Assembly: GCA_976551045.1 (NCBI GenBank)
Contig: CDPCPM010000029.1
Span: forward strand, 18,228,001-18,292,000
Reading direction: 5' to 3'
DNA from: Glaucostegus cemiculus
Taxonomy: Eukaryota
DNA length: 64,000 nt
A program made the translations under genes and the position numbers. The notes below the pieces were generated by a model. That model worked only from the letters and a program-made list of their open reading frames with translations. It was not told the DNA's origin and made no database searches. Positions 1-63,324 of this stretch are shown here, piece by piece. Position 1 is the stretch's first letter, and each line of letters opens with the position of its first letter.

Positions 1-185
1 TTCCCTCTGTTCTCTGGTCCTCTCTTCTTTTCTGCAACTGAAAACATGCTTGTTTTCTTAGTTTTTCAGTTCTGGTGAAAGGTTCTTGACCTGAAATGTC
101 AACTCTCCTTGGATGCTGCGTAAATTGATTAGTGCTTCCAGCATTTTCAATTTTTGTTTTGGAATTTCAACAGTTGCAGTTTTTT
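1..185 (+). mobile_element. PLE-derived terminal fragment with degenerate hammerhead motif
   Basis: cagtt-CTGGTGA-aaggttcttgacct-GAAA-tgtc-aact at 67-104, followed by the family tail (gatgctgc...ttccagcatttt...atttcaacagttgcagt) also seen at the end of the PLE at 41050-41190. Confidence 0.6.
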
Positions 186-189
186 CTCC

Positions 190-395
190 AGCTGGGGATA
201 ATGCCCCAGTTTTATTTGAAATAATATCATGGGATCCTTTATCCTGAGAGAGCAATGTGGAGCCAACACCTCCAACAGTACAACATTCCTTTAGTACCAC
301 AGTGAAGTATTTTTGTGATCAAGATTTTGCGGTGGGACTTGAACTCACAACCTTCTGATCCAAAGGTATGAGTGCTGTCAACCAGGCCTTGGTCG
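190..395 (-). mobile_element. tRNA-headed SINE (Deu-domain/SacSINE1-like), degraded
   Basis: gtgggacttgaactcacaaccttctga is the reverse complement of a tRNA-like B-box head; the body resembles 56320-56630. Confidence 0.55.
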
Positions 396-3383
396 GACAT
401 CCCATTTTGATGATAATATCAGATATGTGATTTTGCCACTGCCACTCATTAAACAGTTCTTCCAATTATCAGTTCCTTTGGCTTCATTGGAAATAAAAAT
501 TAAACAGGATTAAAAAGGCCTGTCAATCACCTCCTGCCCCAGTATCATTCCAACCCAAATTTACCTCTAAGATTTTCCTACATTCCAATAGTGGCTGTAG
601 TTCAAATGTACTCATTGGTTATGAAGTGATTAGTGATGAAATTAAGTCATGAAGTTGCAATATAGAAACAAGTTCTTTTTTTCCACTTTAAGCTTGGAGA
701 AGGATTCACAGTGTGACGGACTTCACATCACATCAAGAACCCGTTACAGATTTTGTTTTGTGAGTCTGTGGCTTTGAGCGAATGTGTTTTACTGAGATGG
801 GTTGATCTTTTTAAAGAGCATGATGGGCAAGTCTTTTAAAAGATTGACCCTGTATATGTGGCTTCCATTACTGACATCACCCCATTGATTTCCTTCACAA
901 ATCAGAGCATGGTTCGTCAGATTTGCTTTGCTATTTAATCACAACAGAATTCTTGACATGTGTAGAGTTTTAATAATAGTTTATTTTAACCTGTGGTAGA
1001 CCTTGTGCAAATAGTGTAATAAGCAGTTCAAATACTCTGTAAAAATAGAAAGTATTAAATTTATTATGGCTGCAAAATTTGCTGAGGGCATTTGAGAACA
1101 GTCAAAGGGTTTGACTGGCCTTCTCCATTTCTCATTGTCTCAGTCCCTTGATAATAACTGTCAAATTGTGTTGAAATTAATCACTAGAAGGTTACCAACC
1201 ATATCACTTATGCATTCCAATGAAATTATATATATTTTCTGATTTTGTTAAAACAGCAGAGAGAGGAGTTTCAGGCTTCCATTTTATTTAACAAGACAAC
1301 AAACTTTCAGAAGCACTTTACTGGGCTGGTAATTTCAGGAGTGGTTTTGGGGAGTGCGGGCTGTCCTATGCAGAATTGTTGGCATTTTTTGACATCAGAA
1401 CCACCTAGCTACAGATGCATGCATGGAAGTTTAAGTCCCAAACCTGCTGCCTGAGCTTCACTGCCAACTCCCAGAATGGAATCACGTTGGAATCCAGTGG
1501 CAGGGCCTAAATTTTTTGCCAACCTGCTGCTGGATCTGGTGGAGGAGCAATGAATCCTCTCATTGGGTTGAAGACTGCAAGGTAAGGGTATTAGGTAATT
1601 CGTGTTTAACATTTCCTTACATTAACTGAATATCTAGCAATGGCTTTAATGGTTTGAAATGTTTTTGTATTTTAGGTGATAAATTATTTTCATTAAAAAA
1701 TGATTATTTGATTTTTTAAATAGGTTTTAAATGTGCCTAAACGTCCTTGCATGGCTTAAAAGGCCCAATCACACAGCTGTATTTTCATCAGGTCACAACC
1801 TGGTCTTGTCCAGGCCAGCCGATGTCACAGGAACCATTGTTCAAGACCCTGCTCCATTTTAGATTGGGACAATTACAGCTGGATGTGGAAAAGGAAGGTG
1901 TGTACCTGGTACATATGTCATCAGGAAGGATGGGTGAATCAATGCTATTGGCACACTCTGGCTGATTATATGGTGGAGTCACAACTTTCAAATTTCTGAC
2001 TGAGAACCAAGATGGTTATTAGCTCATCCAAAGCTGCCAGAGTAAACATTCCAGACCTCCCAATGCCCCCCTCATACATGCATCCACTTATCATCTTGTT
2101 TAGGGACAGCTGGCAGAAGTGCATTTATTAAATGTTGGGTCTGCTAAATGTTTGTGTCGTAATTGTTCTTTGGGAGTACTTAAAATGGGGGAGATTGAAT
2201 CAACAGCTCAGTTTATACACTGCCCAGTTTCCATGGCCTCTCAGTATATTATCCTCTCTAACTGGGGTAAGTGCTGAAGATCAACTTCACCTCATTAGAC
2301 CAAGTACAATTGTTTGCCTCTTTAAACAACGATAGGAACAGAACACGCTGTTTCAAACTGTTAATGTACATCTTGAAAGTAATTAAAAATTCACTAATCC
2401 TAGGAACTTTAGCAACATTCTTTAAGCAGGCTGTGTTCAGGGAGAGTGAGCTGTGTTTCTTATTAGTATATAGTAGATTTTCTTGTCAACAGTTATTATT
2501 CAGCATTGACTATCCAGTTTTGTTTTAAGAGATCTTCACACAGACCTAAGTTTCCCACTGGCCATGTTACATAAAACTCTGGAACAGCCAGTATCTCAGA
2601 CAGTTTCTTCAGAGAGAGAAGTAGAGTTAAAGTTTCATGTTGATGATTTTGCACTGGTATTTTAATTCCAGGAACTAATCATGATTTTAATTCCTAAAAT
2701 GATGATGGCATTTGAGAAATTGGGTAAAATCCCAGATGGTATATTTATGAAAAAAACATGAATGAACAGGACATCCACATGATTACATTTGTAGACCCCA
2801 TCAAAATAAGGATAATGTTGGAAAAGGAAATACTCTCCAGTATTACATTGGGGAAGGCTCCTTTACTTCTTGGCACTCATGATTTTAAACTTAAAATCCA
2901 GGGATGGGTGCCAAGTGACAATTCCCAGTTAACACAAGTGCTCCCAGTGGTAAACCGTCGCTAACTGTGAGTGCATCGGAATTATAGAAGTCACAACTGC
3001 CAAGTGAGGTGCTGCCCACTGTGTGTTTTGCAAAATTCTTCACTCTATTTCTCACTGTTTCCAGTGAATGGAAATAAATATTAGCACTGGAAAGAAAAAG
3101 AGTTCTGACCAATCAACTTCTGGCTTGCAACTTCTTCCCAAAAACTTATCAACTGATATTTTTATAAAGGAATTGCCAAATTTGCTAACAGTTGATTAAT
3201 ACACAGAAACAATGCACTGCACTGCTCAGGCAACAACTGTCTTCTACTGCTGCATCTTCCTTCAATGTTGCTGGGATATGATTAAAATATTTCTGGTGCC
3301 TTCAGAAACATTCAATACCAATATAAGGATTATATTTGTTAACTGCATGGTGCTTCTGCTGTTTAACACACAGGGTAGTTCTG

Positions 3384-3538
3384 CGGAGAGACAAGAGATT
3401 GCAGATGTGGGAACCCGGAGCAACAATCTAGACTGATGCAGGGTTTCAAGCCGAAACATTGACAATTCATTCCCCCACCCCACCCACAGATGCTGCTTGA
3501 CCCGCTGAGTTCCTCCAGCAGATTCCTTGTTGCTCCGA
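3384..3538 (+). mobile_element. Short non-autonomous PLE-derived element with hammerhead-like motif
   Basis: Starts agagacaagagattgcagatgtgggaacccggagcaacaa and ends ttgttgctccg; motif CTGATGC-agggtttcaagcc-GAAA-catt at 3433-3460; degenerate TSD ggtagttctg (3374-3383) / ggtatttctg (3539-3548). Confidence 0.75.
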
Positions 3539-3699
3539 GGTATTTCTGTTGTTGTAGCTTCACCAGATTGAAACCTCTTTTGGGTAAGCCTGATCTACTC
3601 CTGATCCTGTGTCCCTCATTGAACTGGAGTTTGTCCCCTGGTTTGATGGCAGTGAAAGAGTGAAGGACCAGACAAGGACTGGTTGAGACTGATTCAGTT

Positions 3700-5120: not shown

Positions 5121-5356
5121 AATTGGTTATTGGTTTATTATTGTCACATACCAAGGTACAGTGAAAAATGTCTTGCACACCATTCATACAGATTCAATTC
5201 ATTACACAGTGCAGATACATTGAGTTAGTACAGAGTGCATTGAGGTAGTACAGGTAAAAACAGTAACAGAGTGTGGAGTAAAGTGTCACAACTCTCTGCA
5301 GTTTCTTGCAGTCCTGGAAAGAACATTGCCATATCAAGCCATGATGCATCCAGATA
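5121..5356 (-). mobile_element. Rex1/Babar LINE 3' fragment (continues at about 6619-6680)
   Basis: Reverse 3' tail ggtttattattgtcacataccaaggtacagtgaaaaa plus 'CKKLQRV' peptide; 6619-6680 is the upstream part of a minus-strand copy (KKAHQRLYFLRRLKKFGM). Confidence 0.75.
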
Positions 5357-5394
5357 GTGAGTGTCCCAGACAGATTGGGACACTCACCAAAACA

Positions 5395-10546: not shown

Positions 10547-10559
10547 AGCACAAAACTCC

Positions 10560-16074: not shown

Positions 16075-16245
16075 ATACAAGAGCAAACTCCTGTGGATAT
16101 TGGAAACCTAAAATGAAAACAGAAAAATGCTGGAAAGTCTCGGACTTCAGATGAAAGATCACAAACCTAAAATATTAACTCCACTTCTCTCTCCTCAAAT
16201 GCTGTCTGACCTCCTGAACATTTCCAGCATTTTCTGATTTTATAG
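16075..16245 (+). mobile_element. Short PLE-derived element, highly degraded
   Basis: tgtggatattggaaacctaaaatgaaaacagaaaaatgctggaaa ... cagatgaaagatcacaaacctaaaatattaact ... tttccagcattttctgattt (inverted ends). Confidence 0.55.
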
Positions 16246-21879: not shown

Positions 21880-22010
21880 TAGCAGAGCAGCAGGTGCTGA
21901 CCTCGATCTCTCAGTCCTGATACAGGGTTTCGACTGGAAACGTCCACATTTCCTTTCCTCCTACAGATGCTGCTTGACCAGCTGAGTTCTTCCAGCAGAT
22001 TGCTTGTTGC
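21880..22010 (+). mobile_element. PLE-derived fragment with hammerhead-like motif
   Basis: cagtc-CTGATAC-agggtttcgactg-GAAA-cgtc at 21912-21944, then cagatgctgcttgaccagctgagttcttccagcagattgcttgttgct. Confidence 0.7.
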
Positions 22011-24309
22011 TGACCAGTACCTTACTTGGTTATTAGTATTCAGTTGGTGGGCTAAAATCAGAAGATCCCTCAGACAGAGAAAGGACTGCAGATGATGGAA
22101 TCTAGATGAAAAACTCAATGATGTTGGAGGAACTCAGCAGGGCTCCCTTAGGCATCTGAGATGGAGCAAATATGCATGGCAAGTTGTGAAAGAAGGTTGG
22201 TGGAGGAATCTGTGTGTGGCATTCACTGTGTGACATCCCATACTGCAGCAACCAAAAACGTGAGGTCAAGCTTAACTCTGAGAACTTTGGCAGGCAGCCT
22301 TGACAAGGAGTTGGACTGGAATGTACCTTTACCGCCCGTGTTAGAGAATTGTTTCTTCTTGAGTTGCTGCTGACTTTCTCCTTCCACCTCACAAAGGCAG
22401 CTGAAGTATCAGCTTTCTTGACACCACTCCCAAGAGTGCCTTCCATTCTCTGACTTACTTCACCACTATATCACCCCTCTGTAAGGTCTGCAGCTCCCTT
22501 GGACCTTCCTTCTGCAGATGCTGTCTCTGGTCTCATATGCATTTACCCAGCTTCTTTCAACGGCTGCATGGCTTTAAATCCTGCTTGGGGCACTGATTCT
22601 GCCTTCTTCTGTTGTTCTCGAGACCTGCCTGGATGTAGCTTGCAGGGATCCTGTGTTGGCTCCGATCAGCTACAATCACGTTAGCTGATGATGGAATTTA
22701 AAATTCCTGGGCTTTGGCATGGGGCTGGGCCAGATTCTGCCAAAACAACCAAACTCGATGAAAGTTCACTACTCGAACATTATTCCGTACCTCCCTCCCT
22801 CCACAAATGCTCTCTGAGCTGTCAACTGTTACTAGCAGTTTTCTATTTTTATTTTAGATTTCCAACATCTGCAGTACTTCACTTTTAATTTTAAAAGTTA
22901 ACAATTGTGTGATCTGGGAAGGAGACAATTGCTAACCAGTCAATGGATCACATTTTGAATTGACTTCAATAAGGACACAACAAAGCCATGTGACCACTCT
23001 GAACCCTGCCATCCATCCAGTGTATGAAAATCTAAACATTAAAGTGGATAATTGATTTGGAGTGTAAGCAGTGAAATAATAAACTGAGTCTATTATAAAT
23101 TTTCCAGATTAATTTCTGTCATAAGTAAACACTACTTTGAGTAATGAATCTACTTGCTGTTCTCTATAATTCCTTGTGGGAACTTGAAAATACTTGTTAT
23201 AGTTGCCAACCTACTGTGAAATCCAGGTGTAGGAGTTGGCTTAGAAACTTGGCCTGCTTCTGTCATTTTACAGCTATCCAGCAGTGCCACAGGGTCTCAT
23301 ATTATGGATGGGCAGAGCTCCAGGATTAAATTAACATCAGCTTGGCTCGGCATAGACCTCACCTTAGTCTCATGTAGCTGCTGTCTACAGTTGTAGTTGC
23401 TTAACAAAGAAATAGGAATATCTAAATTATGCAATACTGACAAGAAGTGTACCTCTGCAGAGGGGATATTCTTTTACACTTAATTTTGAGTCTGAATATT
23501 ATCCCATTGCACAACTACTAGTCGAATTTGAAAGTCCAAGGCCAACCTTAAGATATGTACTGGGATCACAAAATTCATTAGCTGAATTTTTGCTGCCTAC
23601 CCTATCTCCAGGGCATATTGATATTCAAAGAAATATGAGAAATTAAATCATGAAATGCCCATTTTCGAGACACTAAATGTACATAATTGGGTTTTACCCA
23701 GATTAGATTGGTAAAATCATGTCACTTATGAAAACGGATCAGGCACTTCCATGTACAATCTACATTGGTGTGCCTGAACGTTCCCTGGAGTCAGGCGCTC
23801 ACCTGACTTCATATTTCATGATGACATCGTTATTTAACTAATGCCATTTTGGCTCATACTTACATAACTTGGAGATCAAAGCTCCAAGGTAGGATCACTA
23901 TGCAACAGTTTTGGTAGAAAATGGAGGATATTGTACAAGTTTGCTGTTTTTACATTATGTAAATGGTAACTCCACTGACATCGTAAGAGCTGATTGGATA
24001 GCTTCAGAAATGTCTGTAGGCTACTCAAGCAACTTCCAAATCCACGGAATCTGTTTAAAGTAACAGGGAGCGTTTTCCCCACCTCTTCACTGCTGAGGTA
24101 CTCATTCCCTAGATGTTTCTCCTCCTACACAACTGGTCATGATTCAGATTCCCAGAAAAAGCCTATAGCAGCCTTCGGCCCCTCTTGAACATTTGTAATG
24201 GGTCCAAACACTGTTGCACTTGATTGTCATCCATTCTGTCTCCACCTCTGGCAGGGTAAACACTCCTTTTTATCTTAAGCCCATTCTGTGGATTTGGAAG
24301 TTGCCTGTG

Positions 24310-25193: not shown

Positions 25194-25335
25194 GATGAAA
25201 GTTGAAAAGCTGCTGGTGCTGGAAATAAAACCAGGAAATTTTGACAAGGGATCCTCGATCTAAAACGCTGGTGCTTCTTCTCTTCTCACTGATGCTGCCT
25301 GACCTCCTGAGTGCTTCCAGCGTTCTTTGTTCTCC
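25194..25335 (+). mobile_element. Short PLE-derived element with exact 11-bp TSD
   Basis: TGAAACAAGTT at 25183-25193 and 25336-25346; family body gatgctgcctgacctcctgagtgcttccagc. Confidence 0.75.
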
Positions 25336-25933: not shown

Positions 25934-26596
25934 TAAATGCCATTATGAATAATAGTGCTAAATTCACTTCTGTTCTTGCATTTTTACAGTCCTATTGTCT
26001 TACAAGGAGGAATAAAATCTACATGTGCATATTTGTAGCATGAAAAAGGAAATATTTTTCCCTTTCCCAAGATTCCAAATGATTGCTCCAAATGAATGCA
26101 ATGAAGGTGAAATCAGCAAACTTGGAATATCAGATCGAGTTCTACTTCTTATATGTGTTGTGCATGCTTATGATCCTTGGTCCATGTGGAAAAAGCTCAG
26201 AGGCTCTTCGTCTTGTGGTATGTGGTCAGCTGAGTGGAGAATGATAGTTTTGGCAGTCTGGCTGCCACTGGGCGCATTACTGCTTGGTATCACTTTCTGC
26301 CAAGGAATGAATGTGCTGTTTGCCAAATTTTTTTGGAACTTCACTCTCTTCCCTACTTGGGCACTAAAATTATGATTTCAAGCAGGTTTTTTAACAAAGA
26401 GTTATAGCTTTAACTTGTTTAACATTTGAAAGAATAAGAACGAAAGCGACTCTTGCAACTATATCCCTGTGTTATTGAATGTCTCAACAGTGTAGTGAGT
26501 GCTGAAATAGCAGAAACCAATTAGCCAGTTTGTGCACAGCAAGCACACACAAATACCAGAGCAATGTGATGGCCACCCAGATCTGCTCGTGCGATG

Positions 26597-26746
26597 AAAA
26601 ACACGATGATGTTGGAGGAACTCAGCAAGCCAGGCAGCATTTGTGGAGAAAAACAGGCGGTCAACATTTCAGGTCAGGACCCTTCCTCAGGACTAAGTAG
26701 CATCATTGTACTTTTCATCTAGATTCCAGCATCTGCATTCCTTTGT
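26597..26746 (-). mobile_element. Short PLE-derived element with intact hammerhead core
   Basis: Minus strand 26694-26660: agtc-CTGAGGA-agggtcctgacct-GAAA-tgtt-gac; TSD tctgctcgtgcgatg (26582-26596) / tctgctctttcgatg (26747-26761). Confidence 0.8.
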
Positions 26747-26824
26747 TCTGCTCTTTCGATGCTGGTTGAACATGTAACTGGACACCGGGGTTCAGGGAGG
26801 GGAATAAATCCAAAGAAAATGACA

Positions 26825-26995
26825 GCACAGAAAAAAACTTCAGATACCGGAAATCTGAAACCAAATCAGAAAAAGCTGGAAAGACTCAGCAGATCAGAAC
26901 TGACAAGGGGTTTATGACCTGAAGCGTTAACTCTGTTTCTCTTTCAACAGGTGCTGCCTGACCTGCTGGGTGTTGCCAGCAGTTTGTTTTTGTTT
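26825..26995 (+). mobile_element. Short PLE-derived element
   Basis: cagataccggaaatctgaaaccaaatcagaaaaagctggaaagactcagcag ... ctgacaaggggtttatgacctgaagcgttaactc ... gctgcctgacctgctgggtgttgccagcag. Confidence 0.6.
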
Positions 26996-29114
26996 AAAAT
27001 GGCGTCACATAAGGAAATTGTCTCCAACCCTGTCATCTTCTGGGTTCTGAGCAAACAACCTGCTCCCAGAAGGTGGATTTACGTTTTAACTATTGAAACT
27101 GTTGAAACCGTGGTTTTAACAGACCTTACGTGGACTGACCGCATTTCCAAGACCCAGGAAACCTGGCAGCTGTAGACAGAGGGGGACACCATTGGGAGAA
27201 ACTGATTGCTTCACAGCTTTGCTGTGGGACAGAAGGAACAGGATTGCTTTCCTTCCAGTTTCCTTCTCTGCTCTATCAGACATTCCACTTACCTTGTAAA
27301 GTCATGCTGAGATGAAAGCCCCTCCCCCGCCTCCCAAAAAATGTCAGGATGAGGCCCTCCCTGTGGTCAGAGCCTAGTGCTGGGATTGGGATCAGACCCT
27401 TTCCTAAAACCAGGGATCAGACATTCACTGGATTTAAAGCCCTGGGATAGGAATTGGAATTTCCTTAAGTGGACTTCACCTGCCTTCCCTACACCCCCAC
27501 CCCGACCTAAGGTTGGTGACTGGTCCTACCTGAGCATGGAGCCTGCTTCAAAAGACCTCCTGTTCATCTGGAAATCAAATCAGTCAAAGTGGGGCATCTC
27601 ACAGGCCAAATGATGCATGGGTAGTGTGACAGTGTGTGGTTAATGCAGTTTTGAAAGGAAGAAATAGAGCCACCAGGGTTAGATTCATTGCCCAACTTTC
27701 AAGGATTCTAGCAAAAGGTTTTATGGGTTTTAGGTGAATATGTGGGCAGAACCTGCTAGGTGAGACAGAGCATTAGGATCAGGAGAACAAAAGCACCAAA
27801 CCAATTTTGAGGATAAGGCAGGAAAGGCTATGAAATGATGCCGATAGGTGACCGAGAGGTTGGGCAGTGAGCAAAGGTAGGAGGCTCTGATCGGCATGTG
27901 CCAATGCAGTTTTGATCCAGTACTAACAATGCAAGCCTTAGAAGCTGGTAAACAAGTGGTCAGTGATTCAGTTGGACCGCTAGGTGGTGGCTAGATTGCA
28001 AGCTTGATCACCTTGGAGACAGATTCTTGTTAGATGTTGAAGCCATCAGGCCACAACACAACTTAGTGTCAAGAAGACGGTGTGTGAAGGTTGATCCACT
28101 ATGAGAGGGGTGCTAGGTTGCTAGTCTTCTGCTTAATGAGGGCTCAACACAAAGGCCACCAGCTGCTTGACTGGAACCAGGATGCTCATAAATAAACACT
28201 GGTCTCCAATTTCACAAGGAGAGGAAAGGGGGGAGGATAGACGAATTATTTCTTATTCACAGGAGTGGGAACTGGAGAAGGATCTCTTGGCAGGAGGCTG
28301 TTCTTTATCAGGGTGCTGTCTGCTACTTCACACAGTCACAACGATATCCAATGAAATTCATAGCTTCTCAGGTGGTACTTTATCTGCTGGGTAACATTGA
28401 TTCAGTTCTGGGGCACTGGATTATCGCTTCCTCATGAACCTGAAACATATTTTCTGTCTGATCTCCGGACGGGGTGAATTTTGTTCTGTTTTTAATTTGG
28501 GTTGTCTGTCTGTCTGAACTACCATGAGAATTCAGAATCTGAGTAACATATTTCTGGAAGAATCTCATTCCAATATTTTGTTAAAGCTGTTCAGGATAAG
28601 GTTTTTTTTCAGAAAGATGAAAAACAGTTCCTCATGCCTAGTTCCAAAGCTGTAATTTCTTACTGTTATTTTGACTAGGTCTGATCACATAGTGTTTGCC
28701 TGGATTTTGCAGGGAAATGCTGACACTTCTGTACCAACTTCCCACTGTCAGTCCAGTGCATAAGCCCTGGGTATACAGAAATGATTGTAGAAGTCTTGGA
28801 CTTGAGGAAGCTAAGTCTCCATCAGCCGTTTCCTGACTGAGGTCCAACATGCACTCCAGAGAATGGGAAGTTTTAATTCCTCTGCAGTCATACTGGTGAA
28901 TGCACAGGGAGAACCTGCCTCAGGTTAGCCCTGGTGCACAACCCACTTCTCCATTCAATTAAATGGAGAGGGACAAACATGAGGAACCAATGTGGATGCT
29001 GTGCCCTTTTAGAGAAAGTTCATCAACCTGAAACAGTAACCATGCTTCTTGCTCCACAAAAACTGTCCAGTCTGCCGAGTACTTATAACATTCCCTGTTT
29101 TTCATATTCCTTAC

Positions 29115-29640: not shown

Positions 29641-32259
29641 TAGAACATAAACATTATGTTTAGAAACATTAAATGTTTTATTTTTAATTGTTTCAAGTCC
29701 TTTAACTTTTACATTTGTTTTACTTTTGATTGATTTTTAATCATTTTTGAATATTTCTGAGTGCTAGTTGCTGAAATTAGAATAATTGGATAATGCAAGG
29801 AAGGTCCTCCAAGGAATCCTTTTCATGCATTCTTTGCAACACTTATTAGGGTCAGGGTGTGAGTTTGTAGATAGGAGCATAATTGCCCTTCTTGTGCTCG
29901 TTACTCTCATCCCCTGAGATTTTTACTTTCACTGGTCACAGTCCCTTTGATTAGGCTGTGCTCCTCACTGCACTCAATCCAACTCCTTGCCCTGATCTAC
30001 CACTGACTGTGGTATATTGCAGGACTTAAGGTAGGTATTCAGTTACCCAAAAAGAAATTGTATGTCATCAAAGATGCATTTGTAGTTAGCTCTATAAGAA
30101 CCCTAGGAGTATTTGAGTGAAAGGTTAAGGCAGAGTTAGGGTGAAGTGTCCATGCCTTTCTCAGTTGTTTCATTGGCAGAGCTTGTTCTAGCTTGCAGGG
30201 CATTTTGGGCCAATACGTTCACAGTGTCAAATGAATGTGCTGCTCCTTTGGAATGTTGTGTCCACACATAGTGTTTAATGTACAAGATATTTACTCACCT
30301 ATAAGCTACTTAAGAATAATGTAGGCAGATTTGATTTTTCTCCTCAATCATCACCGCCTATTTCCTAACAATCTCACACACGTTTTCAATCTTTTAGTTA
30401 ATTTGCCAATAATTCCATGAGCCACAACTTTTTTTACAGCCTCACCTGCAGAAAGACACTGATTTATATCCCCTGACAAGCACTGATCCTCAAGGGGCCA
30501 TTTTGAAATAACCTATCCACCAGGAAACTGAGATGATGAGGTCGAACCCTGGTTTTACACTCTATCTGATTTTATTCTCCGCTGAAGTCAATTGCAGGAG
30601 ATGTAAAACCAACATTCAATCCACTCCTGTCAGTGCCTGCTGGGCAGGTTCAGTTGAAATGACCCCTAATAAATCCAGCAGTTGGAGTGAGGCATGAGCT
30701 GTGACTTCAAAATCCATTTACTCTTTGGACTCTGTGCTCTTTCCCATCTACTCATCAGCCTCCTCAGCTGCAAAGAGTTTCTTTATTTTCTTCTCTCAGT
30801 ATTTTTTGAGGATCCAGGAGTAAATTCCATCTTGCCTTGGCACCATGTAGTTAAACGTATTTATTTGAATTTTGTCATAACACAAACTTTACCGATTATT
30901 CTAGGACCTGGGTGAGGTGAGGTGCACATAGCCTATACTGGACATTTGTGACTTGGTAGAGTGGATGTCTTCCAAATGTGTAACATATCCTGAAAATATT
31001 TGTTGAGATGATAAAGCAAAGGACTGGGTAAAACTATGTTTAGCAAGTAATTGTTTCCTCAACCTTTCAGTTTTCCTTGCATGGTTTTACTTGCTTTCAA
31101 ATCTGCTTTGCACTCCATTCATAATCAGTAATGAGGCTAAGAGGTTTACTTAGCATGAAAGGTGGTCATTGCAAAATAGATCAGGACCAAAATGTTTGAA
31201 GCAAGTCTATCAGCATTTGAACAAAAAATCTGGTTAATGTTTCCGGGTTCTACATAGAGACTTAATTTGAATTATTAACCTGTCTTTTCTTTTCAGGTGC
31301 TGGCAGAATTACTGCACATTGATAGCATGGTCTGAGTTTATCTCACAGTTCCAGCAGTCACTGCGAGGTCACTTTACAAATTAGTGCCCCAGTCAGGAAG
31401 CCATTTCAGGAGCACTTTCCCCCACCCACTGCATGAGCTTTCATCCACTCATGGAAAATGGAACATTCCTGAGAGAGCTGTGCTTAAATTCTGTATATGT
31501 GATCCAGTGGGTGAAGCTGCACATTAGGAGCTGGAGTTTGTGAAGTGACTCCTCTGTAGTAAAGATACTGGAGTGAACCTCCTTCACATGGTTAAAATCT
31601 GACCAAGCTTTTCAAAGCAAAACTCTGTATAGCATTTAATATTTGACTTTATAGTCAAATAAAGTATTATATTCTCTTCATTTTGATGAAGAGTATATAG
31701 TATAATCTGTGCTGTTGTCTATACGAACTTGTGCCCTTACAGAACTTCCATCAATTTGTCTAGACCCAGATTTTCCATTTATAAAGCTTAGTCTCTTGTT
31801 CTCTTGTTATACAGATCATATCCAGGATATTATAGCAGCTGATATGGGGCAAATTTCATTAATGATGAGTTGATGCACCGTAATTAAATTGCCAGTTCTG
31901 ATAGGTATTGGAGTTAAAGATATAAACCTGAATGGAGAAAGCTAAATCTTGTACCTTAGAAATTGCTTTACTGCATTTAAATGGTTTTCACTGTGAGTCA
32001 CTCTAATGCTGTTTTTGCATGTCCCATAAAGATTGCAATCTTCATCTGCAAGGTTCCCAGAAACAGTGTTGTCAGGTTTCTCTGTGTAACATCAAACTGC
32101 GTCATTTTCAGAATATTGACCTATTGGAAGGTCTAGCAGCTCTGAGCACATGATTGAGCAGCTGTAATCTTGGCAGGCAACCCTTGAAGAGGCATATCAC
32201 AATACAAGCAGCACCCATCTAGCTACTGGTGAGCTACTGGTGACTGCTGGATTGTGCAA

Positions 32260-37512: not shown

Positions 37513-38899
37513 CCTACATAAGGATAATGATTTGTTATACATGTCTGTCTTACAGAGGTGAAGATCAAGGTGAAAGGATTTCAGAAATGTGCCGAGATCC
37601 ACCTAAGATAGCAGTTCAACATAGATAGATAAAACCTGGGTAGATTTCTGTGCCAGAGTGTAAGGAATGGGCCTTGGTATTAATTTGTCTACTTAATTGG
37701 TGTACTTATGGAACACATGGCAGAAGGAAAATATCACTGGTGATTTTGTCTACAGCCGGAGCTGCTGTATTTGTGTCAATACATCAACCTATCCACATGT
37801 AATATTTACTTGTATTTGTTGGAAGTTGAGGCTGGTTGGGCCACATTTGCTGCTGCTCCTGGGATCAGTGAAAAAAATAAAACCTTCCAACAAATAAGAT
37901 TAAAAGATCGCTGGTTAGAATTCCAGGGAAGTTTTTCCTTTTCTCCACCCAATTGATAATTTTCCTCAACAAATAACTTCTGCCCACACCCATTATTATC
38001 TTAAATAACAATTCATATGGCACTGTGATTTTTTACAGGTGCTTAAAGCAGACTTGTCTTTCCATATAAACTGGATGAATCATTTATTACTTCTCTCATT
38101 TTAATGGTTTTGCCACAATCCAATTTATATCCATAAGAAATAATTGTCCTCTTATACATTCCTGACAGGGAAACTCATAGCACTTCCAGAAATTCAGGCA
38201 CAAGTTTATATGAGATTACAGCCCTTTAATCTCATATAATGGTCAATAAACTCTGCACCAGGAATTCTGCTGGGCATCACCAGTAAGAAGTTGGCTGCAG
38301 GTTTTTGCTTATAAAATTAGAATGGAGGTTGCACTTTATCTGATGAAATAACCTTTACAGATTATCCAGTATCTTTTGTCACTTTGCAGCTCCTTTGATA
38401 AACTGCTGCTCATTTGACCATTCAAATCCCCTGCCAATTTCCTGCATTTACCTTTTTCTAAAAATTGCACTGCAGTCAATTTGTTTTACAAACCTTGTAA
38501 ATGCATATTTTTGCAAGATTTTTTTCATTTGTACCTGAATATTTTTATAAGCTTTAGGCTTTTGACTTTTTGGAAAGTATGTGTACCTCACACACTGATA
38601 GACAAAATGATCTGAAGGAGCTACTAGTGGAACTGACAACATCTACCTTTGATCTTTCTGCTTCTCATTATAACAAGTATTACGCTGTAAGATCTTTTCA
38701 AAGGTTACACAGGCAACATTGGTATATTTCCAAGTTCTGTTGGAACACCATGCATTCAGACTTGTATGTTAACTATGTTTTATAGAATCATAAGGTCATT
38801 ACAGTACAGGTTAAGGCTAAATACAGTACAGTATGTGCTGTCTTTTTTTTCAGTTTTCTGGTTAGTTCATTTCTGTTGAGTTGAGGTTTCAATATGGAG

Positions 38900-41191
38900 C
38901 AACACACACAAAGTGCTGGAGGAATTCTGTGGGTCAGGCAGCATCTATGGAGGGAAATAAACAGTCAACTTTTCAGTTCAAGATCCTTCATCAGGTCTGG
39001 AAAGGAAGAAGGCCGAAGCCAGAATAAAAAGGTCGGGGAAGGGGGAGGAGCAAAAGCTGGCAGGTGATAGGTGAGTCCAGGTGAGAGGGGTGAAGGTGAA
39101 TGGCTTGGTCTGAAAGGGAATGATGTGAGAAGCTGGGAGGTGGCAGGTGGAAGAGGCAAAAGGCTGAAGAGAAAGGTATCTGATAGGAGAGGACAGTAGA
39201 CCATGGAATAAAGGGAAAGAGGTGGGGAAATGAGAGAAGGTGATTGGCAGGTTGTGAGGGTGGAGGAGGGGAAAGAGAAGGGATGAGGGAGGCACAGGAA
39301 TGAGGGAAAGAGGGAAAGACGTGAAGAGGGAAAAGGGAAACAGAGGGGAGGGGCTACTGGCAGTTAGAGAAGTTGATGCTGATGCCTTTAGGCTGGAAGC
39401 TACCAACGCAAAATATGAGGTGTTGCTCCTCCAACCTGCGTCTGGCCTCAGCGTGGCAGTAGAGGAGGACAGTATGGAAATAGAAAGTGGAATTGAAGCG
39501 GCTGGCCACCAGGGGATCCTGGCTATTGCAGCGGATGGAGAGAAGGTGTTCGATGAAGCGGTCCCACGATCTACGCACCTGGTGCTCCTGGTGCAGTCTC
39601 ACCAATGTAGAGGAGGCCACACCAGGAGCACCAGATGCAATAAATTACACCCTCAGATGCACAGGTGAAGCGCCAACTTCCATCCTGCCCTCAAATTCAC
39701 TTGGTCCGCCTCTGACACCTCTCTCGTCTTTCTTGATCTCTCTGGCCCATCTCCAGAGACAGATTAACCACCGACATCCTTTACAAACGCACCAACTCCC
39801 ACAGTTACCTTGACTACACCTCTTCCCAGCCTGTCACTTGTAAGGACACCATCCCCTTCTCTTAGTTCCTCCGCCTGCACTACGTCTGTTCTCATGATGA
39901 GGTTTTCCATTACAGGACATTGGAGGTGTCCTCTTTTTCCAGTAAACGGGGTTTCTCTTCCACCACCATCAATGCAGCCCTCACCCGCATCTCCTCCAAT
40001 TCCTGTACATCTGCCCTCACACCATCCACCCCTGCCATAACAGGGATAGGATTCCCCTTGTCCTCACCTACCACCCCACGAGCTTGCACATCCAACACAT
40101 CATTCTCCACAACTTCTGCCGTCTCCAACGGGATCCCACCACCAGGCACATCTCCTCCACCCCCCCCAACGCACCCTCCTCCCCCCCACCCAGCTCCCTG
40201 CAGAAAGCAGGGATCACTCTCTCTGGAACTCCCTTGTCCACTCGTCCCTCCCCACTGATCACCCTCCCGGCACTTATCCCTGCAACCGTGCAAAGTGTTA
40301 CACCTGCCCCTACACCTCCTCCCTCACCATCATTCAGAGTCCTAGACAGTTCTTCCAGGTGAGGCAGCGCTTCACCTGTGAATCCAAGGGTGTCACTGAT
40401 TGCATCTGGTGTATCCAGTGCAGCTTCCTCTACATTGGTGAGACCTGATGCAAATTGGGTGACTACTTCGTTGAGCACCTTCGCTCCATCTGCTGCAACA
40501 GCCAGGATCTCCCAGTGGCCAGCCACTTTAATTCCACTTCCCATTCCCATACTGACATATCTATCCACAGCCTCCTCTGCTGCCACGTTGAGGTCAGACG
40601 CAGGTTGGAGGAGCATCTTGGTAGTCTCCAACCTGATGGAATCAACGTCAATTCTAACTTCTGGTGAACCCTCCCTTCAGTTTTCCCCTTTTTACCCCTC
40701 CACCCTCTTTGTTTTCCTTCTTTTTCCTCATTCCTGTGGCTCCCTCACCCCTTCTCTTTCCCCTCCCCTGCCATTACGACCTGCCCTAACATCCCTCCTA
40801 TTCCCCACCTCCTTCCCCTTATTCCATGGTCTACTATCTTCTACCAGATTCCTTCCTCTTCTACTAGATTCCTTCTTCTTCAGACCTTTGCCTCTTCCAC
40901 CTATCACCTCCCAGCTTCTCACATCATTCCCTTTCACCTCCCCTCCACCTACCTATCTTCTCCCTCTCACCTGAACTCACCTATCACCTGCCAGCTTGTG
41001 CTCCTTCCCCTCCAAACTACCTTTTATTCTGGCTTCTGCCTTTTTCCTTTGCATTTCTGATAAAGGGTCTTGACCTGAAAATATCGACTGTTTATTTCTC
41101 TCCATAGATGCTGCGTGATCTGCTGAGTTCCATGAGCATTTTGTGTGTGTTGTCTCAGATTTCAGCATCTGCAGAATTTCTTGTGTCTCCC
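38900..41191 (+). mobile_element. Penelope-like retroelement (5'-truncated RT and GIY-YIG) with an inverted arm
   Basis: 39673-40660 (+): NFHPALKFTWS...YKRTNSHSYLDYTSSQP..CKDTIPFS*FLRL (RT thumb) and FTCESKGVTDCIWCIQCSFLYIGET*CKLGDYFVEHLRSI...PVASHFNSTSHS...LGSLQPDGIN (GIY-YIG). 38900-39672 is an inverted copy of about 40368-41152. Degenerate TSD tttcaatatggag (38887-38899) / ttccaacatggag (41192-41204). Confidence 0.9.
38962..38999 (-). ncRNA. Putative minimal type I hammerhead ribozyme motif
   Basis: cagac-CTGATGA-aggatcttgaact-GAAA-agtt-gactg: core intact, stem I 4/5 paired, stem II weak; activity unproven. Confidence 0.55.
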
Positions 41192-42930: not shown

Positions 42931-45786
42931 GAGATAAACACACATCTGAATTACTCTAGTTCATTGAAATTCTATTCACTATATGTAAAACAAGACATGC
43001 TAAAAATCCAGGTAGCTTATTATTACATAACAAGGAAGTTTTAACTATTAATTCATTTCTATTCCTTGTACAAGACATAGGTATTTAGGCAATATGTGGA
43101 TCTTATATAAGAGTAAAGTTGGTTAGATAACTTCAAAAAATTAATGGATTCCAAAAGCTATTGTTGAAGTTGCTTAATATCACAAATATTTTGTTTGGAT
43201 CCTTTTGAAAGCAGCATCATTTTGTTTCTCCTTGGCATTGATATACTTCAAATACTCTAGTTTGAGTAGGAATGCAACTGCAAATGTAAGCTTGGCTAGC
43301 AAACCATAAAATAACCACATTTTAGACAATGCAATTTAATAAAAATACCCACCTAAAGTATTACAGCAATAACAATATCTACATAACACCCTTACTGTAG
43401 AAAATTACCTCCTGGGGCTTCAGAGAAACAAAATGAAGCAAAAATTGATCCTGAGACATAGAAGTAATTAAATTAAATGATCAAAAGTCACATTAAAGAG
43501 GTGAGAATTGCAAAGGGGGATAAAGAGTTGGAGCTGTGGAGGGGCTTAGGAAGAACATGGCAGAGCTATGGGGCATTTAACATTTAACGAATAACAAAAG
43601 AACATTTAACAATACTGGAATGAAATGAGGGACTGGAGCCAGATAAACAGAGTGCTGAAAAGGAGCAAGAAAATGAAATTGTGGGGTTGGAAGATGTTAC
43701 AGAAGGGACTTAAACATAGAGGCAAAAAGGCTTAATTTGAGGCAAAAGGGAGTGGGAGTCAATGAGATTAGGTTGTTAGTTGAGTTTAGTGTAGGATCAG
43801 TTACAGTAGGGATTTGGATGAGCTAGAAATTGTTGCGTGTAAAAGACAAGAGGCCAGCCAGGAGATTATTGAGGTTACAGGACTTGGAAGCAACTAAGCC
43901 ATAGACGAGGGTTAATTTACCATATTGGCAATCCATTCATCAATTCAGAATATATATGTGTTTAACTTGGCCAAAACCTTTAGATGTAGAACAAATAGAA
44001 CAGTCAAATCTGGAAAATGAAATAGCCCAAGACCTCTGAGTTGCTGATACATTTCACATGTTGATACTGGCTGACTCACATAGAACTTGTGCCTTTATGA
44101 CATCTACAGGTGTGAAAATAAACAGGAACATCCTAACCTGGTGACATTCAGACTCCACTATCAGGTTTTCATGTACACAAAGAAAACCATCCATAATGAT
44201 ACATATTTTCACAAGTGAATCTCACTAGCTGGGTGGTAAGTGTTGTTTGGACAGACTGCCTCAACTATGACATTCATCATATTTCACTGTTAACAGTCTT
44301 TTATTTTTGGTACCACATGTTGATAGATCTTTCTTAATGCTGCAAGCTTGGCATCGATGAACATAGTCTCCACAGTGACCATGCCAAACAGTGTTTGTTT
44401 TGGCATGAAGTGTTGCTGAGTATTAAAACTGACATTGGTTGGTAAATTCTTACCAACATCATGAATAAATATATAAGCAAGATATTTTCTATTTATAGCA
44501 TTTCAGAATTTAGTTGCAGTCATCCGTGATGTTTTTAACTTCACAGCACAAGCTCTGATAACGTTAGCTGGGAAAGAAGTGCAAGACCATAGGCATGGAA
44601 ATCCTATCAAGCCTGGTAGAATAGGGCTGACAGATCTTGGTGTAAGGAAACACCTTCCCACTGGAAATCTGAAACAAAGAGAGAAAATGCTGGAAATACT
44701 CACCACCTGTGGGGAGAGAAACAGAGACAACATTGAGGGAATCAACTGTGGAGAGAGAAACAGAGGTCATGTTTCAAGACCTTTGCATCAGAACCCTCTG
44801 CAAAGCTCTGCCACACTCAAGTTGTCAGAAGAAGTCAGGTAGGTCCTGGGAAGGGCAGAGTATGAAGGGACAGACCTGGAGTCAGGGTTGTGAGCATTCA
44901 AGAACACTGGTGGAAGAGGATTCAGGGATGGAGTATGTTGGAGGAGGGGATGTCTCAGGAATTGAACATCAGGAGAAGATGCATTATGAAAATGAGCATT
45001 GGGTCACTGAAGAGCAGGGTATAGGCCATAGCTGAGACCTCAGAGGAATGGGCATCATATTCAAAGGCAGACCTACCCTATAAAACAACAGATGCCTTCA
45101 GCTCCATGGCAGGAGACCTAATAAATGCAACTCCCTTTAATCAGTGCCACGGCAGCTTTCAGCTCTCTGCTTATGGCCCGCTTTAGTGTGAGCAGTGTGT
45201 ATCACCCATGACCAATGAATGCAGTCTGAGGACCTGAATCAAATACATGCTTCCACAAAGGAGGTAGTAGGATTTAGCAGACTGGTTTTAGGAAAAGATT
45301 TAGTGGTATAATGCACCAGAATTTTGCACTGCTAAGAAGACCTTCTAATGCATGGAATCTCATTGGAATGATAATCCATATGTTTTAGTTCTGGGGATCT
45401 AGAGAGGTTGTTTAGTAATAATTATGGTTTAGGTCATTCCTGAATGCTGATACAACAAAACTGTTTTCACAGTAGTTTACAGTTAATATTATTTGCAAAT
45501 ACATGAAGTTTTCAATCAGATCACTGACTTTTGAAGAGAATGCTGGGAAAATTGCTAAATAGTTCTCCATATGAAGGAAAGGTAATGTTAGAGATTATTC
45601 AAGAGTTATAAAATTATATGGATAACAGGTATTGATTAAAATGCGGACCAGTCTTCAGGTAATATCTGTTCGCAATTCAAGTTACACTGACACTTTAAGG
45701 CCATCAAAAACAATGTCAGATGTGGGTTCTGATTCTGTACCATTGTAAATACACAGGGGAAGACAATAAATGAATGTTCATGTTAA

Positions 45787-45838
45787 CCTGCTGAGACAAT
45801 TGAACCTGTTGAGTTCCTCCAGCACCTTTTGTGTGTTT
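45787..45838 (+). mobile_element. Very short PLE-terminus insertion with exact 12-bp TSD
   Basis: TGTTCATGTTAA at 45775-45786 and 45839-45850 flanks cctgttgagttcctccagcaccttttgtgtgtt. Confidence 0.7.
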
Positions 45839-48079: not shown

Positions 48080-48109
48080 GAGTGGAATCACTGACAAAGG
48101 GGTGGAAGG

Positions 48110-56630: not shown

Positions 56631-56731
56631 CAATAGGCAGTTAGCAAAATGTAAGTCATTCTGACACCCACTATCTTGTAAGTAGCTGCTTGCTGGTGTG
56701 CAAACTGTAAAGCCAGTAGCTCAGAGGAAAT

Positions 56732-56980
56732 AGAGCAACACACAAAACGCTGGAGGAACTTAGCAGATCAGGCAGCATCTATGGAGGGAAATGAACAGTC
56801 GATGTTTTGGGCTGAGACCCTTCATCTGGATTGCAATCCATCTCCAATCCGTTTGAAAGGTCTCAACCTGAATCATTGACTGTCCATTTCCCTCCATAGA
56901 TGCTGCCTGATATGCTGAGTTCCTTCAGCATTTTTGTGTTGCTCTAGATTCCAGCATCTACAATCTCTTGCATCTCACAT
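56732..56980. mobile_element. Fold-back PLE-derived element with arms of about 100 bp
   Basis: 56732-56833 is the imperfect reverse complement of 56845-56945; a 35-bp tail follows; degenerate TSD tcagaggaaat (56721-56731) / tcacaggaagt (56981-56991). Confidence 0.85.
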
Positions 56981-61362: not shown

Positions 61363-61590
61363 CTTGACAGATCTAGTGAGATCATGGAATTTCTTCCTGC
61401 ACTATTCCCAGGATGATGGTTCAAATTAGTCTGGGCAGCAATCTCTACTTCCATGTCCTATCATCTCTTCGTAACTGCTCTGGGGGCCCTCATGATACCC
61501 TTATGTAGAGGTTATGCCATTCACTCAACCTTATCCACAGTGATGTGATGAGCTATGTCTCTAAACTGAGGCACACTTCATCCTCTGCAC
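61363..61590 (-). pseudogene. Harbinger Myb/SANT-like DNA-binding gene relic
   Basis: Minus strand: VPQFRDIAHHITVDKVE ... EIAAQTN ... SWE*CRKKFHDLTRSVK, matching the Myb/SANT-like 'PRFSD...' and 'QCRKKFNDL' motifs. Confidence 0.65.
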
Positions 61591-62959
61591 TGCTTCCCCT
61601 CTAGTCATTTCAAACGAGCAACGAGATGCCCACTTCCAGCAGTGTTGTGGCTTAGTGGAGAAGTTCTCTTTAACAGATGGAGCCCTGACACCATTCAACA
61701 CAAGAATGGGTCAGCTGGTTCAAGGTACTGAGCCCACTGATCATTGTAAACTTTGCATTAACAGGATGAAGAAACTATTGCACACTCAAAAACCGGCGTG
61801 GACATTGTCAGCGTGATCATGATTGAATACTAAATGCAACCTGCTTCAGCACAAGCATGCAGGAGCTAAGCATATTTAGGCACAATCCAATTTCCAGATG
61901 TGGATCCAAGGTTGCTGAGTTTTTGGGTTCTCCTCTATTAAGTACTTCTGGTGCATTCCAATGCAGCTAGTGTTGTTCATTGGGAGTGTAGATTCCTGAA
62001 GCCAAAGGGATTTCCTGAGTGGAAGCATATGCAAAGAATGGAGTTCCTTAAAATCCACCTGCCCTTCCAGACTTGAAGAAACCATCTCCCTGCTTTGTAT
62101 AATTTGGAACATGAACCATAAGCTAAGGAAAGAAAGCACCTTTGGAGAGCATCCCTCTCAGGTGCCTTTGGAAAGTGATGATATGAAGGATCGCCATTTC
62201 TTTTCATGATGCCACCATCCATGGCAAACAGTATCTATTGATGCCAGGGAAAGGCGGCAAGCAGTTCAATCTGATGGAGAGATGGCCGGGATTTCTACCA
62301 TGGGATGACCTGGCTGTCATGTGTGTTAGAAGCTCTACTGTTGAGATACTTGCTGTCAAAGAAACGAACGTACAAGGCAGCAGGTCTAGTGAAAGTAAAT
62401 GATAAATCATACAGGCCATCCACACTAACGTAGTGTCAGCCATAAAGAGTATTTCGATGCTCCAGAGATCATTCAGTTCTGCTTCTCATGCAACAATTCT
62501 GTTTATTTTTATCAGCACCATGGGGACAGGGCTAATGAGGTTTACCAGCAATTAATACTGGTGTCAGGTTTTTAAGAAACAGAAGGCAAGTTTTCAATGT
62601 CAGCCAAGCATTAAATTGGCAGCAATGGATTGGCTTCCCATTATATATCTGCCCTCATTTTCCTTTCTATTGACTGACCTCATTGCACATTTACTGAAGT
62701 TGAATTCAATCGCTTTGACTATTTTAAGAGCAGCTAAGCTTTCTTCAAAATTATATAATTATGTTCTTTCTATAGTTTGTAGCCCCTCCTCCCCATTCCT
62801 AGAAATGTAAGGATTAATCTCAGGTGTTGAGGCCTGTAACATGAGCTGGCAGGCACTCAGGAGCAGAACCATCAGACCAGTGGTGCAGCCAGCTCACTGA
62901 TGTTTCAATTATGGCACAGGCATGGAAAGCCTATTCATAGCTGCATAATAGCTTTCTTG

Positions 62960-63324
62960 AGCATTGAATACAAAATGCTGGTCAGGCAGCATCTCTGGAG
63001 GGAAATGAACTGTTGAATTTTCAGGCCGAGACCCTTCATTGGGACAGGAGCGGAGGAAGCCAGAAGCTAGAATAAAAGGGTAGGGGGAGGGGGAGGGGGA
63101 GGAGCACACACAGGCAGGGGATAGGTGAGTCCAGGTGAGGGGGGAAGGTAGATGTGTAGGGGAGGGGGAATGAAAGGGAATGATGTGAGAAGCTAGGAGG
63201 TGATAGGTGGAAGGGGCAAAGGGCTGAGAAGAAGGAATCCAATAGGAGAGGACAGTAAGTCATGGAATAAATTTTGTGTTCGTTGCTCCAGATTTCCAGC
63301 ATCTACAGTCTCTCTCATGTCTCC
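62960..63324 (-). mobile_element. PLE 3' terminal fragment with inverted short tail
   Basis: Similar to 38900-39210; ends with the + strand tail ttgctccagatttccagcatctacagtctctctcatgtctcc; degenerate TSD ataatagctttcttg (62945-62959) / atgacaactgtcttg (63325-63339). Confidence 0.8.

What the first reader, a model, noticed from the sequence alone, without database searches (positions are those of the whole stretch)
67..63046. Dispersed family of short, non-coding, hammerhead-bearing retroelements (retrozyme-like) derived from a PLE terminus
Seen in sequence: a motif with hammerhead topology recurs at 67-104 (+), 3433-3463 (+), 21912-21944 (+), 26660-26694 (-), 38962-38999 (-), 41052-41090 (+), 56786-56833 (-) and about 63008-63046 (-). 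More decayed traces lie near 16148, 25241, 26900, 29010, 33445, 44770 and 56845. The by-eye consensus CAGTC-CTGATGA-AGGGTCTCGGCCC-GAAA-CGTC-GACTG gives stem I (CAGTC/GACTG), the CUGANGA core, a short stem II, GAAA, a palindromic ACGU mini-stem III and a GUC cleavage triplet. Established: PLE termini carry minimal type I hammerheads that are thought to cleave as dimers. Inference: many copies here are only 140-370 bp, have no coding sequence and have their own TSDs. They may therefore be an abundant non-autonomous ribozyme-SINE/retrozyme-like family with subfamilies (CTGATGA versus CTGATGC/CTGATAC).
Basis: partly seen in the sequence, partly recalled or inferred. Interest (0 to 1): 0.7.

Follow-up and report, generated by a model that had tools for sequence, protein, structure and literature searches.

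The report
Penelope transposon stubs starting at hammerhead
These repeats are worn end-pieces of a known kind of protein-coding jumping gene (Penelope-like elements) that carries a tiny ribozyme motif, not a separate mini-element; their one unusual trait is that many begin at the ribozyme's first bases, which likely marks where the element's RNA starts.

Summary
The motif is real at all 8 named sites. It is the minimal type I hammerhead in the terminal repeat of Neptune-type Penelope-like elements (PLEs): window 39673-41190 joins it to a GIY-YIG endonuclease remnant, and longer genomic copies reach the reverse transcriptase. Sampling found 166 arms in 800 kb, about 600,000 genome-wide; only 4 of 187 pass a loose core descriptor. 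The retrozyme/SINE reading fails: no tandem arrays, no variant private to short copies, and TSDs flank short, truncated and inverted copies alike. But breakpoints are not random: 30 of 93 subfamily-A arms start at -10..+2 of the CUGAUGA core, only 4 near the predicted cut 28 nt downstream, and all seven subfamilies show this. Best reading: short copies are run-off cDNAs of full PLE RNA whose 5' end lies at stem I, primed at the two known internal tail sites. The start site itself is inferred; RNA reads were uninformative. The scan noted the same family and start bias before, in this genome and others.

The parts
27..178 (+). Old subfamily-F terminal arm; hammerhead remnant 67-104 (CTGGTGA, core broken); homology runs upstream toward the window edge
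2569..2654 (-).
3385..3536 (+). One insertion: inverted tail piece 3385-3426 (-) plus subfamily-C arm 3433-3536 starting at core position 0; 10-nt TSD with 1 mismatch at 3374-3383 / 3539-3548 (read by eye)
16103..16243 (+). Inverted 3' piece 16103-16136 plus F1 arm starting at -2
21908..22010 (+). Subfamily-C arm starting at -9, no tail; 8-nt flanking repeat by eye
22080..22143 (-). Subfamily-D 3' piece without ribozyme
22753..22875 (+).
25242..25332 (+). Decayed F2 arm starting near -2
26593..26749 (-). Subfamily-D arm 26593-26694 starting at -4 (no tail) plus inverted tail piece 26699-26749 (+); 14-nt flanking repeat with 2 mismatches by eye
26842..27001 (+). Inverted 3' piece 26842-26897 plus F2 arm starting at -5
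29012..29103 (+). Decayed F1 arm
31256..31356 (+). Very decayed F arm
33438..33528 (+). Decayed F1 arm
38891..39669 (-). Inverted 5'-truncated subfamily-A arm without tail; end of endonuclease, 3' UTR and hammerhead 38962-38999
39673..41190 (+). 5'-truncated Neptune-type PLE: RT thumb, CX4CX2C knuckle and GIY-YIG remnant (40050-40667, broken), 3' UTR, hammerhead 41052-41090, tail to about 41190; 13-nt TSD with 2 mismatches around the pair, by eye
44659..44794 (-). Decayed F arm in two pieces
45804..45837 (+). 3' fragment without ribozyme
56733..56976 (.). Head-to-head pair: arm 56733-56836 (-, no tail, starts at -8) and arm 56843-56976 (+, with tail, starts at -7)
62977..63325 (-). Subfamily-A arm 62977-63256 reaching about 210 nt upstream of the core, plus inverted tail piece 63271-63325 (+)

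Best explanation
The repeats are terminal segments (3' UTR end, minimal hammerhead motif, first codons, optional 38-nt tail) of very abundant Neptune-type Penelope-like retrotransposons, and the short ones are likely run-off cDNAs copied from the 5' repeat of full-length element RNA that likely starts at the ribozyme's stem I. Shown: linkage to RT and GIY-YIG, two 3' ends about 38 nt apart, the tail continuing into the element's 5' body, head-to-head pairs of one tailed and one untailed arm, TSDs, and a pile-up of 5' ends at -10..+2 in seven subfamilies. Inferred: the element RNA is terminally redundant; the RT/endonuclease cuts both DNA strands and primes internally at the two tail sites (as shown in vitro for an anole PLE, PMC11167929); priming in the 3' repeat gives long, variably truncated copies, while priming in the 5' repeat runs off the RNA end after about 95 or 135 nt; the two cDNAs of one break are often joined head to head. 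The ribozyme does not set the ends of these cDNAs, and nearly all genomic copies are decayed and probably inert.
For: Majority line of long copies reads RT thumb, CX4CX2C and GIY-YIG in one frame, 368 nt before the core; weak Pfam RVT_1 and GIY-YIG hits in 2 of 9 frames, both below cut-off; RT motifs visible in L277, L290, L276. 3' ends bimodal, 53 tailed and 40 untailed of 93; tail runs into the 5' body in most of loci L323-L352; 22 of 26 inverted pairs join a tailed and an untailed arm. This layout is as described for EN+ PLEs (PMC8557442, PMC3846280). 30 of 93 A arms picked by a 3'-side 35-mer start at -10..+2: 2.3 per nt against 0.25 (-50..-11) and 0.41 (+3..+24); 30 of 57 within -50..+41, p 9e-12. 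Same in A 39/69, B 14/30, C 25/41, E 6/8, D 4/6, F2 19/51, F1 17/45 of arms breaking in -50..+30, and in the position-sampled loci alone 38 of 90. Simulated uniform breakpoints give 16-20%. Only 4 of 93 break at +25..+28, in line with uncut RNA being the substrate in PMC11167929. The sequence there (CCAGTC/TCAGTC) fits the Pol II initiator pattern YYANWYY (pattern recalled). G precedes A(-4) in 41 of 85 junctions but C(-5) in 6 of 50 (hand counts), as copying of a cap would give.
Against: No RNA evidence for the start: three RNA runs of a related organism show no place where many molecules begin or end, and 93-99% of laid reads run into unlike sequence. The G excess is confounded by inverted-arm microhomology: 18 of 49 after removing arm-like junctions, p 0.14, and G is also common before G(-3) (about 21 of 43, hand count). 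The 5' ends spread over about -8..0, wider than one fixed end would give. Among upstream units of partial tandems only 1-2 of about 26 start at the hotspot, and several start further upstream. The same spot is also a good 3' splice site (pyrimidines plus CAG), and in D. virilis Penelope the intron ends at helix I (PMC4209133). Short and long A copies are slightly clustered on the tree (24 changes against 29.4 shuffled; 5-10 of 500 shuffles as low). No intact full-length element with both repeats was recovered.
Confidence: 0.6

Rival explanations
1. Same PLE origin, but the hard stop is made by splicing or by an RT stop at RNA structure, not by the transcription start. The pyrimidine tract plus CAG before the core acts as a 3' splice site, or the enzyme falls off after copying the ribozyme hairpin.
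For: All subfamilies have a pyrimidine run and CAG directly before the core; -2 is as common a start as -5 in A; the D. virilis Penelope intron ends at the 5' end of helix I (PMC4209133).
Against: Spliced templates should carry a shared upstream exon; the 80-nt flanks of 13 solo hotspot copies share nothing. A stem-I fold-back would fix the partner arm's end near +28..+33; partner ends vary from -5 to +82 and beyond. About half of A arms (46 of 93) pass the site.
Confidence: 0.22
2. The short copies are an independent non-autonomous ribozyme-SINE: source units of about 135 nt that begin at stem I are transcribed on their own and mobilised in trans by the PLE protein.
For: Defined 5' zone; TSDs on 6 of 13 solo hotspot copies; slight clustering on the tree and an A/G site at +16 that differs in frequency (7/30 against 23/38, p 0.003 uncorrected, 387 tests); short copies outnumber long ones in B, C, F1 and F2.
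Against: No fixed private variant; similar divergence (88.6% against 87.1% to the majority); interleaved on the tree; would need separate births at the same base in seven subfamilies; TSDs also on 4 of 14 other truncations and 19 of 26 inverted pairs; 17 of 30 hotspot arms are halves of inverted pairs.
Confidence: 0.12
3. Retrozyme: tandem hammerhead units self-cleave as dimers, circularise and are reverse-transcribed.
For: Type I core with palindromic mini-stem III; non-LTR retrozymes derive from PLE pLTRs and were reported in one chondrichthyan genome (bioRxiv 10.64898/2026.07.22.740005).
Against: No array over 2 copies in 1.84 Mb of loci enriched for the motif; close neighbours are mostly head-to-head (27 against 13 direct in the sampled set); ends are not at the cut; no circular-type joint at the cut among the joints shown (only the best supported were listed).
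Confidence: 0.04

Closest known systems
Minimal type I hammerheads (min-HHR) in pLTRs of metazoan PLEs (Cervera and de la Pena 2014, PMC4209133)
   Same: Core CUGANGA/GAAA, extra base before stem II, palindromic 15.2-16.2 with no loop III, short stem I, thousands of dispersed single copies and opposite-strand pairs, several consensus families per genome.
   Different: Cartilaginous fish are not named in the parts read (supplements not seen); roughly 600,000 arms against 4,000-9,000 motifs reported for coelacanth and Xenopus (different counting: theirs are intact motifs); amplified core variants U4A (B) and CUGAUGC (C, E).
EN+ Penelope-like elements, Neptune clade; insertion units with inverted 5'-truncated pLTR and 30-40 bp tail (PMC8557442, PMC3846280)
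   Same: RT, CX2-5CxxC knuckle, C-terminal GIY-YIG; heavy 5' truncation; partial tandems; head-to-head inverted copy; tail on one end; TSDs of about 9-15 nt; pLTR holding the first codons.
   Different: A sharp pile-up of 5' ends at stem I was not found described in the passages read or in searches. No RT tree was built, so clade rests on the knuckle and domain order.
Poseidon element of the green anole, PAc (Frangieh et al. 2024, PMC11167929)
   Same: Two genomic 3' ends matching two internal RT start sites; hammerhead beside the ORF start; no sign that cleaved RNA is the template.
   Different: Other clade; here the likely start codon lies after the ribozyme rather than in stem II; no biochemistry here.
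Non-LTR retrozymes of animals (PMC7229834; bioRxiv 10.64898/2026.07.22.740005)
   Same: Type I hammerhead, PLE ancestry, short units.
   Different: Defined by tandem arrays, mostly canonical ribozymes and circular RNAs; none seen here.

Membership tests
EN+ Penelope-like element (Neptune type) | Telomerase-like RT followed by C-terminal GIY-YIG endonuclease in one ORF | tested here: met
   Majority line open for 326 aa from RT thumb to GIY-YIG; RT motifs in L277/L290/L276; Pfam hits weak, below cut-off, 2 of 9 frames; 0 of 4 window frames hit Pfam
EN+ Penelope-like element (Neptune type) | CX2-5CxxC knuckle between RT and EN | tested here: met
   CNRAKCYTC in window frame 40050-40448; definition from PMC8557442
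EN+ Penelope-like element (Neptune type) | pLTR with optional 30-40 bp tail, inverted 5'-truncated partner, partial tandems, TSD | tested here: met
EN+ Penelope-like element (Neptune type) | RT phylogeny within Neptune | not tested
   no reference RT set on hand
PLE minimal type I hammerhead | CUGANGA and GAAA boxes, stems I and II, NUH after a loopless palindromic stem III in the source elements | tested here: met
   Majority of A, D, F1, F2 keeps the core; B has U4A in 12 of 19, C and E have CUGAUGC; inner stem I and stem II pair in all seven
PLE minimal type I hammerhead | Stem covariation | tested here: inconclusive
   One clear double change, I.1 C-G to U-A in F1/F2, and partly II.1; on 55 decayed copies the score does not beat shuffles (63 of 500) though it beats slid registers, 71% against 27-39% paired; F rows were one column off in stem II
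PLE minimal type I hammerhead | Self-cleavage as dimer | not testable with these tools
   Minimum-energy folds of 4 exact-motif copies did not give the hammerhead fold as monomer or dimer; needs an assay
Non-LTR retrozyme | Head-to-tail arrays with a ribozyme in each unit | tested here: not met
   One TRF hit of 2.0 copies in 353 sequences, 1.84 Mb; not a whole-genome scan
Non-LTR retrozyme | Unit-length linear and circular RNA ending at the cut | tested here: inconclusive
   RNA of a relative shows no start or end peak; libraries are poorly suited
SINE-like non-autonomous family | Own source lineage with diagnostic bases | tested here: not met
   (subfamily A only; few columns)
SINE-like non-autonomous family | Defined 5' end and TSD | tested here: met
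   a zone of about 8 nt, shared with halves of inverted pairs
SINE-like non-autonomous family | Internal Pol III promoter or tRNA-derived head | not tested
   no scan was run on the unit; the unit is wholly PLE terminus by alignment

The most novel reading that the evidence does not exclude
The hundreds of thousands of stubs are a fossil record of the PLE life cycle: the capped RNA begins at the first bases of the hammerhead's stem I, both cut DNA strands prime reverse transcription at the two tail sites of the 5' repeat, and the resulting strong-stop-like cDNAs are inserted alone or head to head; the ribozyme does not cut the template, and subfamilies with altered catalytic cores (U4A, CUGAUGC) spread as well as canonical ones, so the motif may serve mainly as promoter and protein-binding structure.
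Probability: 0.4. Interest if true: 0.55.

Novelty: new member of a known kind. Interest (0 to 1): 0.3.

Why it matters
As a family it is ordinary: PLE hammerheads and their dispersed stubs are in print. What could matter is the geometry. How PLEs make inverted ends and tails, and what their ribozyme is for, is open. A sharp 5' stop at stem I rather than at the cut, repeated in seven subfamilies, and the one-tail/one-no-tail rule give direct predictions for the RNA start and the priming order that can be tested in the existing in vitro PLE system.

Tried and rejected
Rfam scan of the window: no hammerhead family. Pfam on 4 window frames: none. Ribozyme cut as 5' end: 4 of 93 at +25..+28, 2 exactly at +28, not clearly above flanks. 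Stem-I fold-back priming: partner ends vary. Shared leader exon before hotspot copies: none in 13 flanks. A seeming ATG leader before AGTCC (8 of 42 G junctions) was dropped: it fits chance, CpG decay and local slippage. Apparent breakpoint clusters at about -90, -277 and -425 are alignment stops at indels, not real ends, so long-copy lengths there are lower bounds. Formal covariation count not above shuffles. Minimum-energy folding uninformative. No RNA holder was listed for the window itself. Reads of related organisms: no start or end peaks; sense excess about 1.25-1.7 in RNA against 1.0 in DNA over the terminus, but depth follows copy number and reads run into flanks. No intact full-length element found among 20 long loci and 60 loci from 5'-body searches. 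L331 and L341 looked young but share core mutations and may be duplicates; not followed. Luense et al. 2017 on PLE hammerhead variants was not held; only its title was seen, and it may cover these variants.
Full report
Observation. The window is G000:C29:18228001-18292000 of a 2.85-Gb genome; that it is a shark or ray rests on recall and on earlier scan notes, not on a test. All 8 named sites and 7 traces hold the motif. Rfam has no hammerhead hit at E<=10. A profile iterated on the terminal ~116 nt finds 23 arms in the window, 166 in 80 stretches of 10 kb taken at round coordinates of large contigs, and 0 in the reversed control; scaled up this is about 590,000 arms (rough, not a formal random sample). 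A loose descriptor (core boxes, NUH, 4 of 5 stem I pairs, 2 or more stem II pairs) is passed by 4 of 187 arms in 864 kb, two of them in the window. Positions below are relative to C3 of CUGAUGA; the predicted cut leaves a 5' end at +28.

What carries it. Window 39673-41190 is a 5'-truncated element with a broken CX4CX2C/GIY-YIG frame and the hammerhead some 385 nt after the stop, with an inverted partner at 38891-39669. Its protein piece has 32,667 first-look candidates in the genome, 150 scored and 151 matches listed. The majority line of 171 related pieces is open for 326 residues, RT thumb to GIY-YIG; longer loci show RT motifs; Pfam gives only sub-threshold RVT_1 and GIY-YIG in 2 of 9 frames. 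The knuckle marks Neptune/Nematis in PMC8557442 (passages). Walking upstream, the last 38 nt of the 3' end (the tail) continue straight into the element's 5' body, and an ATG at about +49 opens a frame through tail and body in L346, L348, L351 of 11 loci translated. So each arm is pLTR plus first codons, as for rotifer PLEs (PMC3846280, passages).

Subfamilies and ribozyme. Clustering gives seven groups, A-E, F1, F2. In 173 arms that cover the motif, majorities keep the core except U4A in B (12 of 19) and C for A after CUGAUG in C and E (15 of 19, 7 of 7); the A next to stem II is constant, so the C may be the extra base rather than a changed A9 (inference). D varies at N7, and D, F1 and F2 at H17, both tolerant positions (tolerance recalled). 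Pair I.1 is C-G in A-E and U-A in F1/F2; distal stem I is lost in C. Within subfamilies the changes are mostly CpG decay, 30-40% at CpG against 0-15% at most other sites, so copies look unselected after insertion. On 55 copies chosen by downstream identity the structure pairs 71% of cells against 27-39% for slid registers, but covariation does not beat shuffles (63 of 500; F rows misregistered in stem II). Cervera and de la Pena describe this motif, dispersed singles and opposite-strand pairs, and found no monomer and low dimer cleavage (PMC4209133, parts 1-2 of 4 read; supplements not seen).

Ends. I took the first 90 listed of 2,978 exact hits to a 35-mer that lies 3' of the ribozyme, giving 93 distinct arms. 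3' ends fall at about +95 (40) or +131 (53). 5' ends: 30 at -10..+2, 10 at -50..-11, 9 at +3..+24, 4 at +25..+28, 4 at +29..+41, 36 further upstream; 30 of 57 within -50..+41, p 9e-12 against uniform. The pile-up holds for solo arms (13 of 58) and arms with an inverted partner (17 of 35). All seven subfamilies show it (F1 scored against the F2 model), as do the position-sampled loci alone (38 of 90 within -50..+30, of 148 arms). The caller does not create it: uniform simulated ends give 16-20%, and one fixed end at -4 would give a sharper peak than seen. Long-copy breakpoints are lower bounds because the caller stops at indels. Of 26 inverted pairs with a complete partner, 22 join a tailed to an untailed arm. 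The two 3' ends match the two internal RT start sites shown for the anole PLE, which cuts and extends both strands, uses uncut RNA and tolerates ribozyme mutants (PMC11167929, parts 1-2 of 4).

TSDs. On 53 insertions with trusted outer ends (40 of the 93 arms left out as long, lacking a complete partner, or duplicate), 29 have a repeat of 9 nt or more with at most 1 mismatch, against 2.8% of 318 permuted pairs: 6 of 13 solo hotspot, 4 of 14 other solo, 19 of 26 inverted pairs. TSDs show retrotransposition, not autonomy of the short unit.

Separate family? In A, 30 short against 38 long arms differ at no fixed site (best p 0.003 of 387 tests, a site polymorphic in both) and are equally diverged. 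On a 90-row tree the label needs 24 changes against 29.4 shuffled, 5-10 of 500 shuffles as low: weak clustering, no clade, few columns. No tandem arrays: one TRF hit, 2.0 copies, in 1.84 Mb. Retrozymes are defined by arrays and circular RNA (PMC7229834, passages; bioRxiv 10.64898/2026.07.22.740005, parts 1-3 of 5, which reports them in one chondrichthyan; its supplements were closed and may bear on this).

Mechanism. A hard upstream edge that is not the cut, and that half the arms pass, is what a terminally redundant RNA gives if its 5' end lies at stem I: priming in the 5' repeat runs off after 95 or 135 nt, priming in the 3' repeat runs into the ORF. PLE promoters lie in the pLTR with an initiator (PMC2377424, passages). 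The base before A(-4) is G in 41 of 85 junctions, before C(-5) in 6 of 50 (hand counts of the first 100 of 676 and of 815 matches, long-like rows removed), but without arm-like junctions 18 of 49, p 0.14, and G is also common before -3. RNA reads of a relative show no start or end peak. The start site is therefore inferred, and a splice-site or RT-stop origin stays open.

Novelty. The ribozyme, its carrier and the insertion layout are known. Searches for Penelope with shark and hammerhead ribozyme (1 irrelevant hit, passages seen), with strong-stop, with elasmobranch and with truncation terms found no description of this shark/ray family or of the 5' pile-up; the library lacks most subscription papers, and Luense et al. 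2017 was not held (a review, PMC6765202, read in passages and part of section 11). Earlier scan notes reached the same reading on other DNA; I saw them after forming mine, and they are not independent support. Verdict: real, ordinary as a family, with one testable mechanistic clue.

Noticed in passing
window 41095-41110 and all subfamily majorities (+33..+49): A second pyrimidine tract plus YAG sits directly before the likely start codon (…CATAG/ATG, …CACAG/ATG), like a splice acceptor; an intron over the ribozyme would remove it from the mRNA. No such joint among those listed.
   Followed up: partly
L324-L351: Many partial tandems consist of terminus plus only 120-200 nt of 5' body, then a second terminus: likely template jumps to the region just behind the tail; several upstream units start near +90..+104, the other priming site.
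   Followed up: partly
L331:732-2100 and L341:757-1800 (oriented coordinates): Two near-identical GC-rich long copies with the same upstream boundary (-649) and shared core mutations; possibly a segmental or haplotype duplicate.
   Followed up: no
L284 about 5758-6091; L297 about 1075-1500 (oriented): Minisatellites grown inside the PLE ORF (36-nt unit in L284; short GC-rich unit in L297).
   Followed up: no
window 48762-49625, 50618-51274, 51457-52329 (all -): Long frames that look like LINE reverse transcriptase pieces (CR1/L2-like by eye; recalled); related dispersed repeats at about 5200-6670, 35170-35670 and 58600-59410.
   Followed up: no
window 15079-15434, 48113-48483: Another dispersed repeat, two copies about 79% alike.
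   Followed up: no
L268 upstream flank: A subfamily-A stub lies right behind what looks like the upstream part of an older F copy; nested insertion into older termini may be favoured.
   Followed up: no
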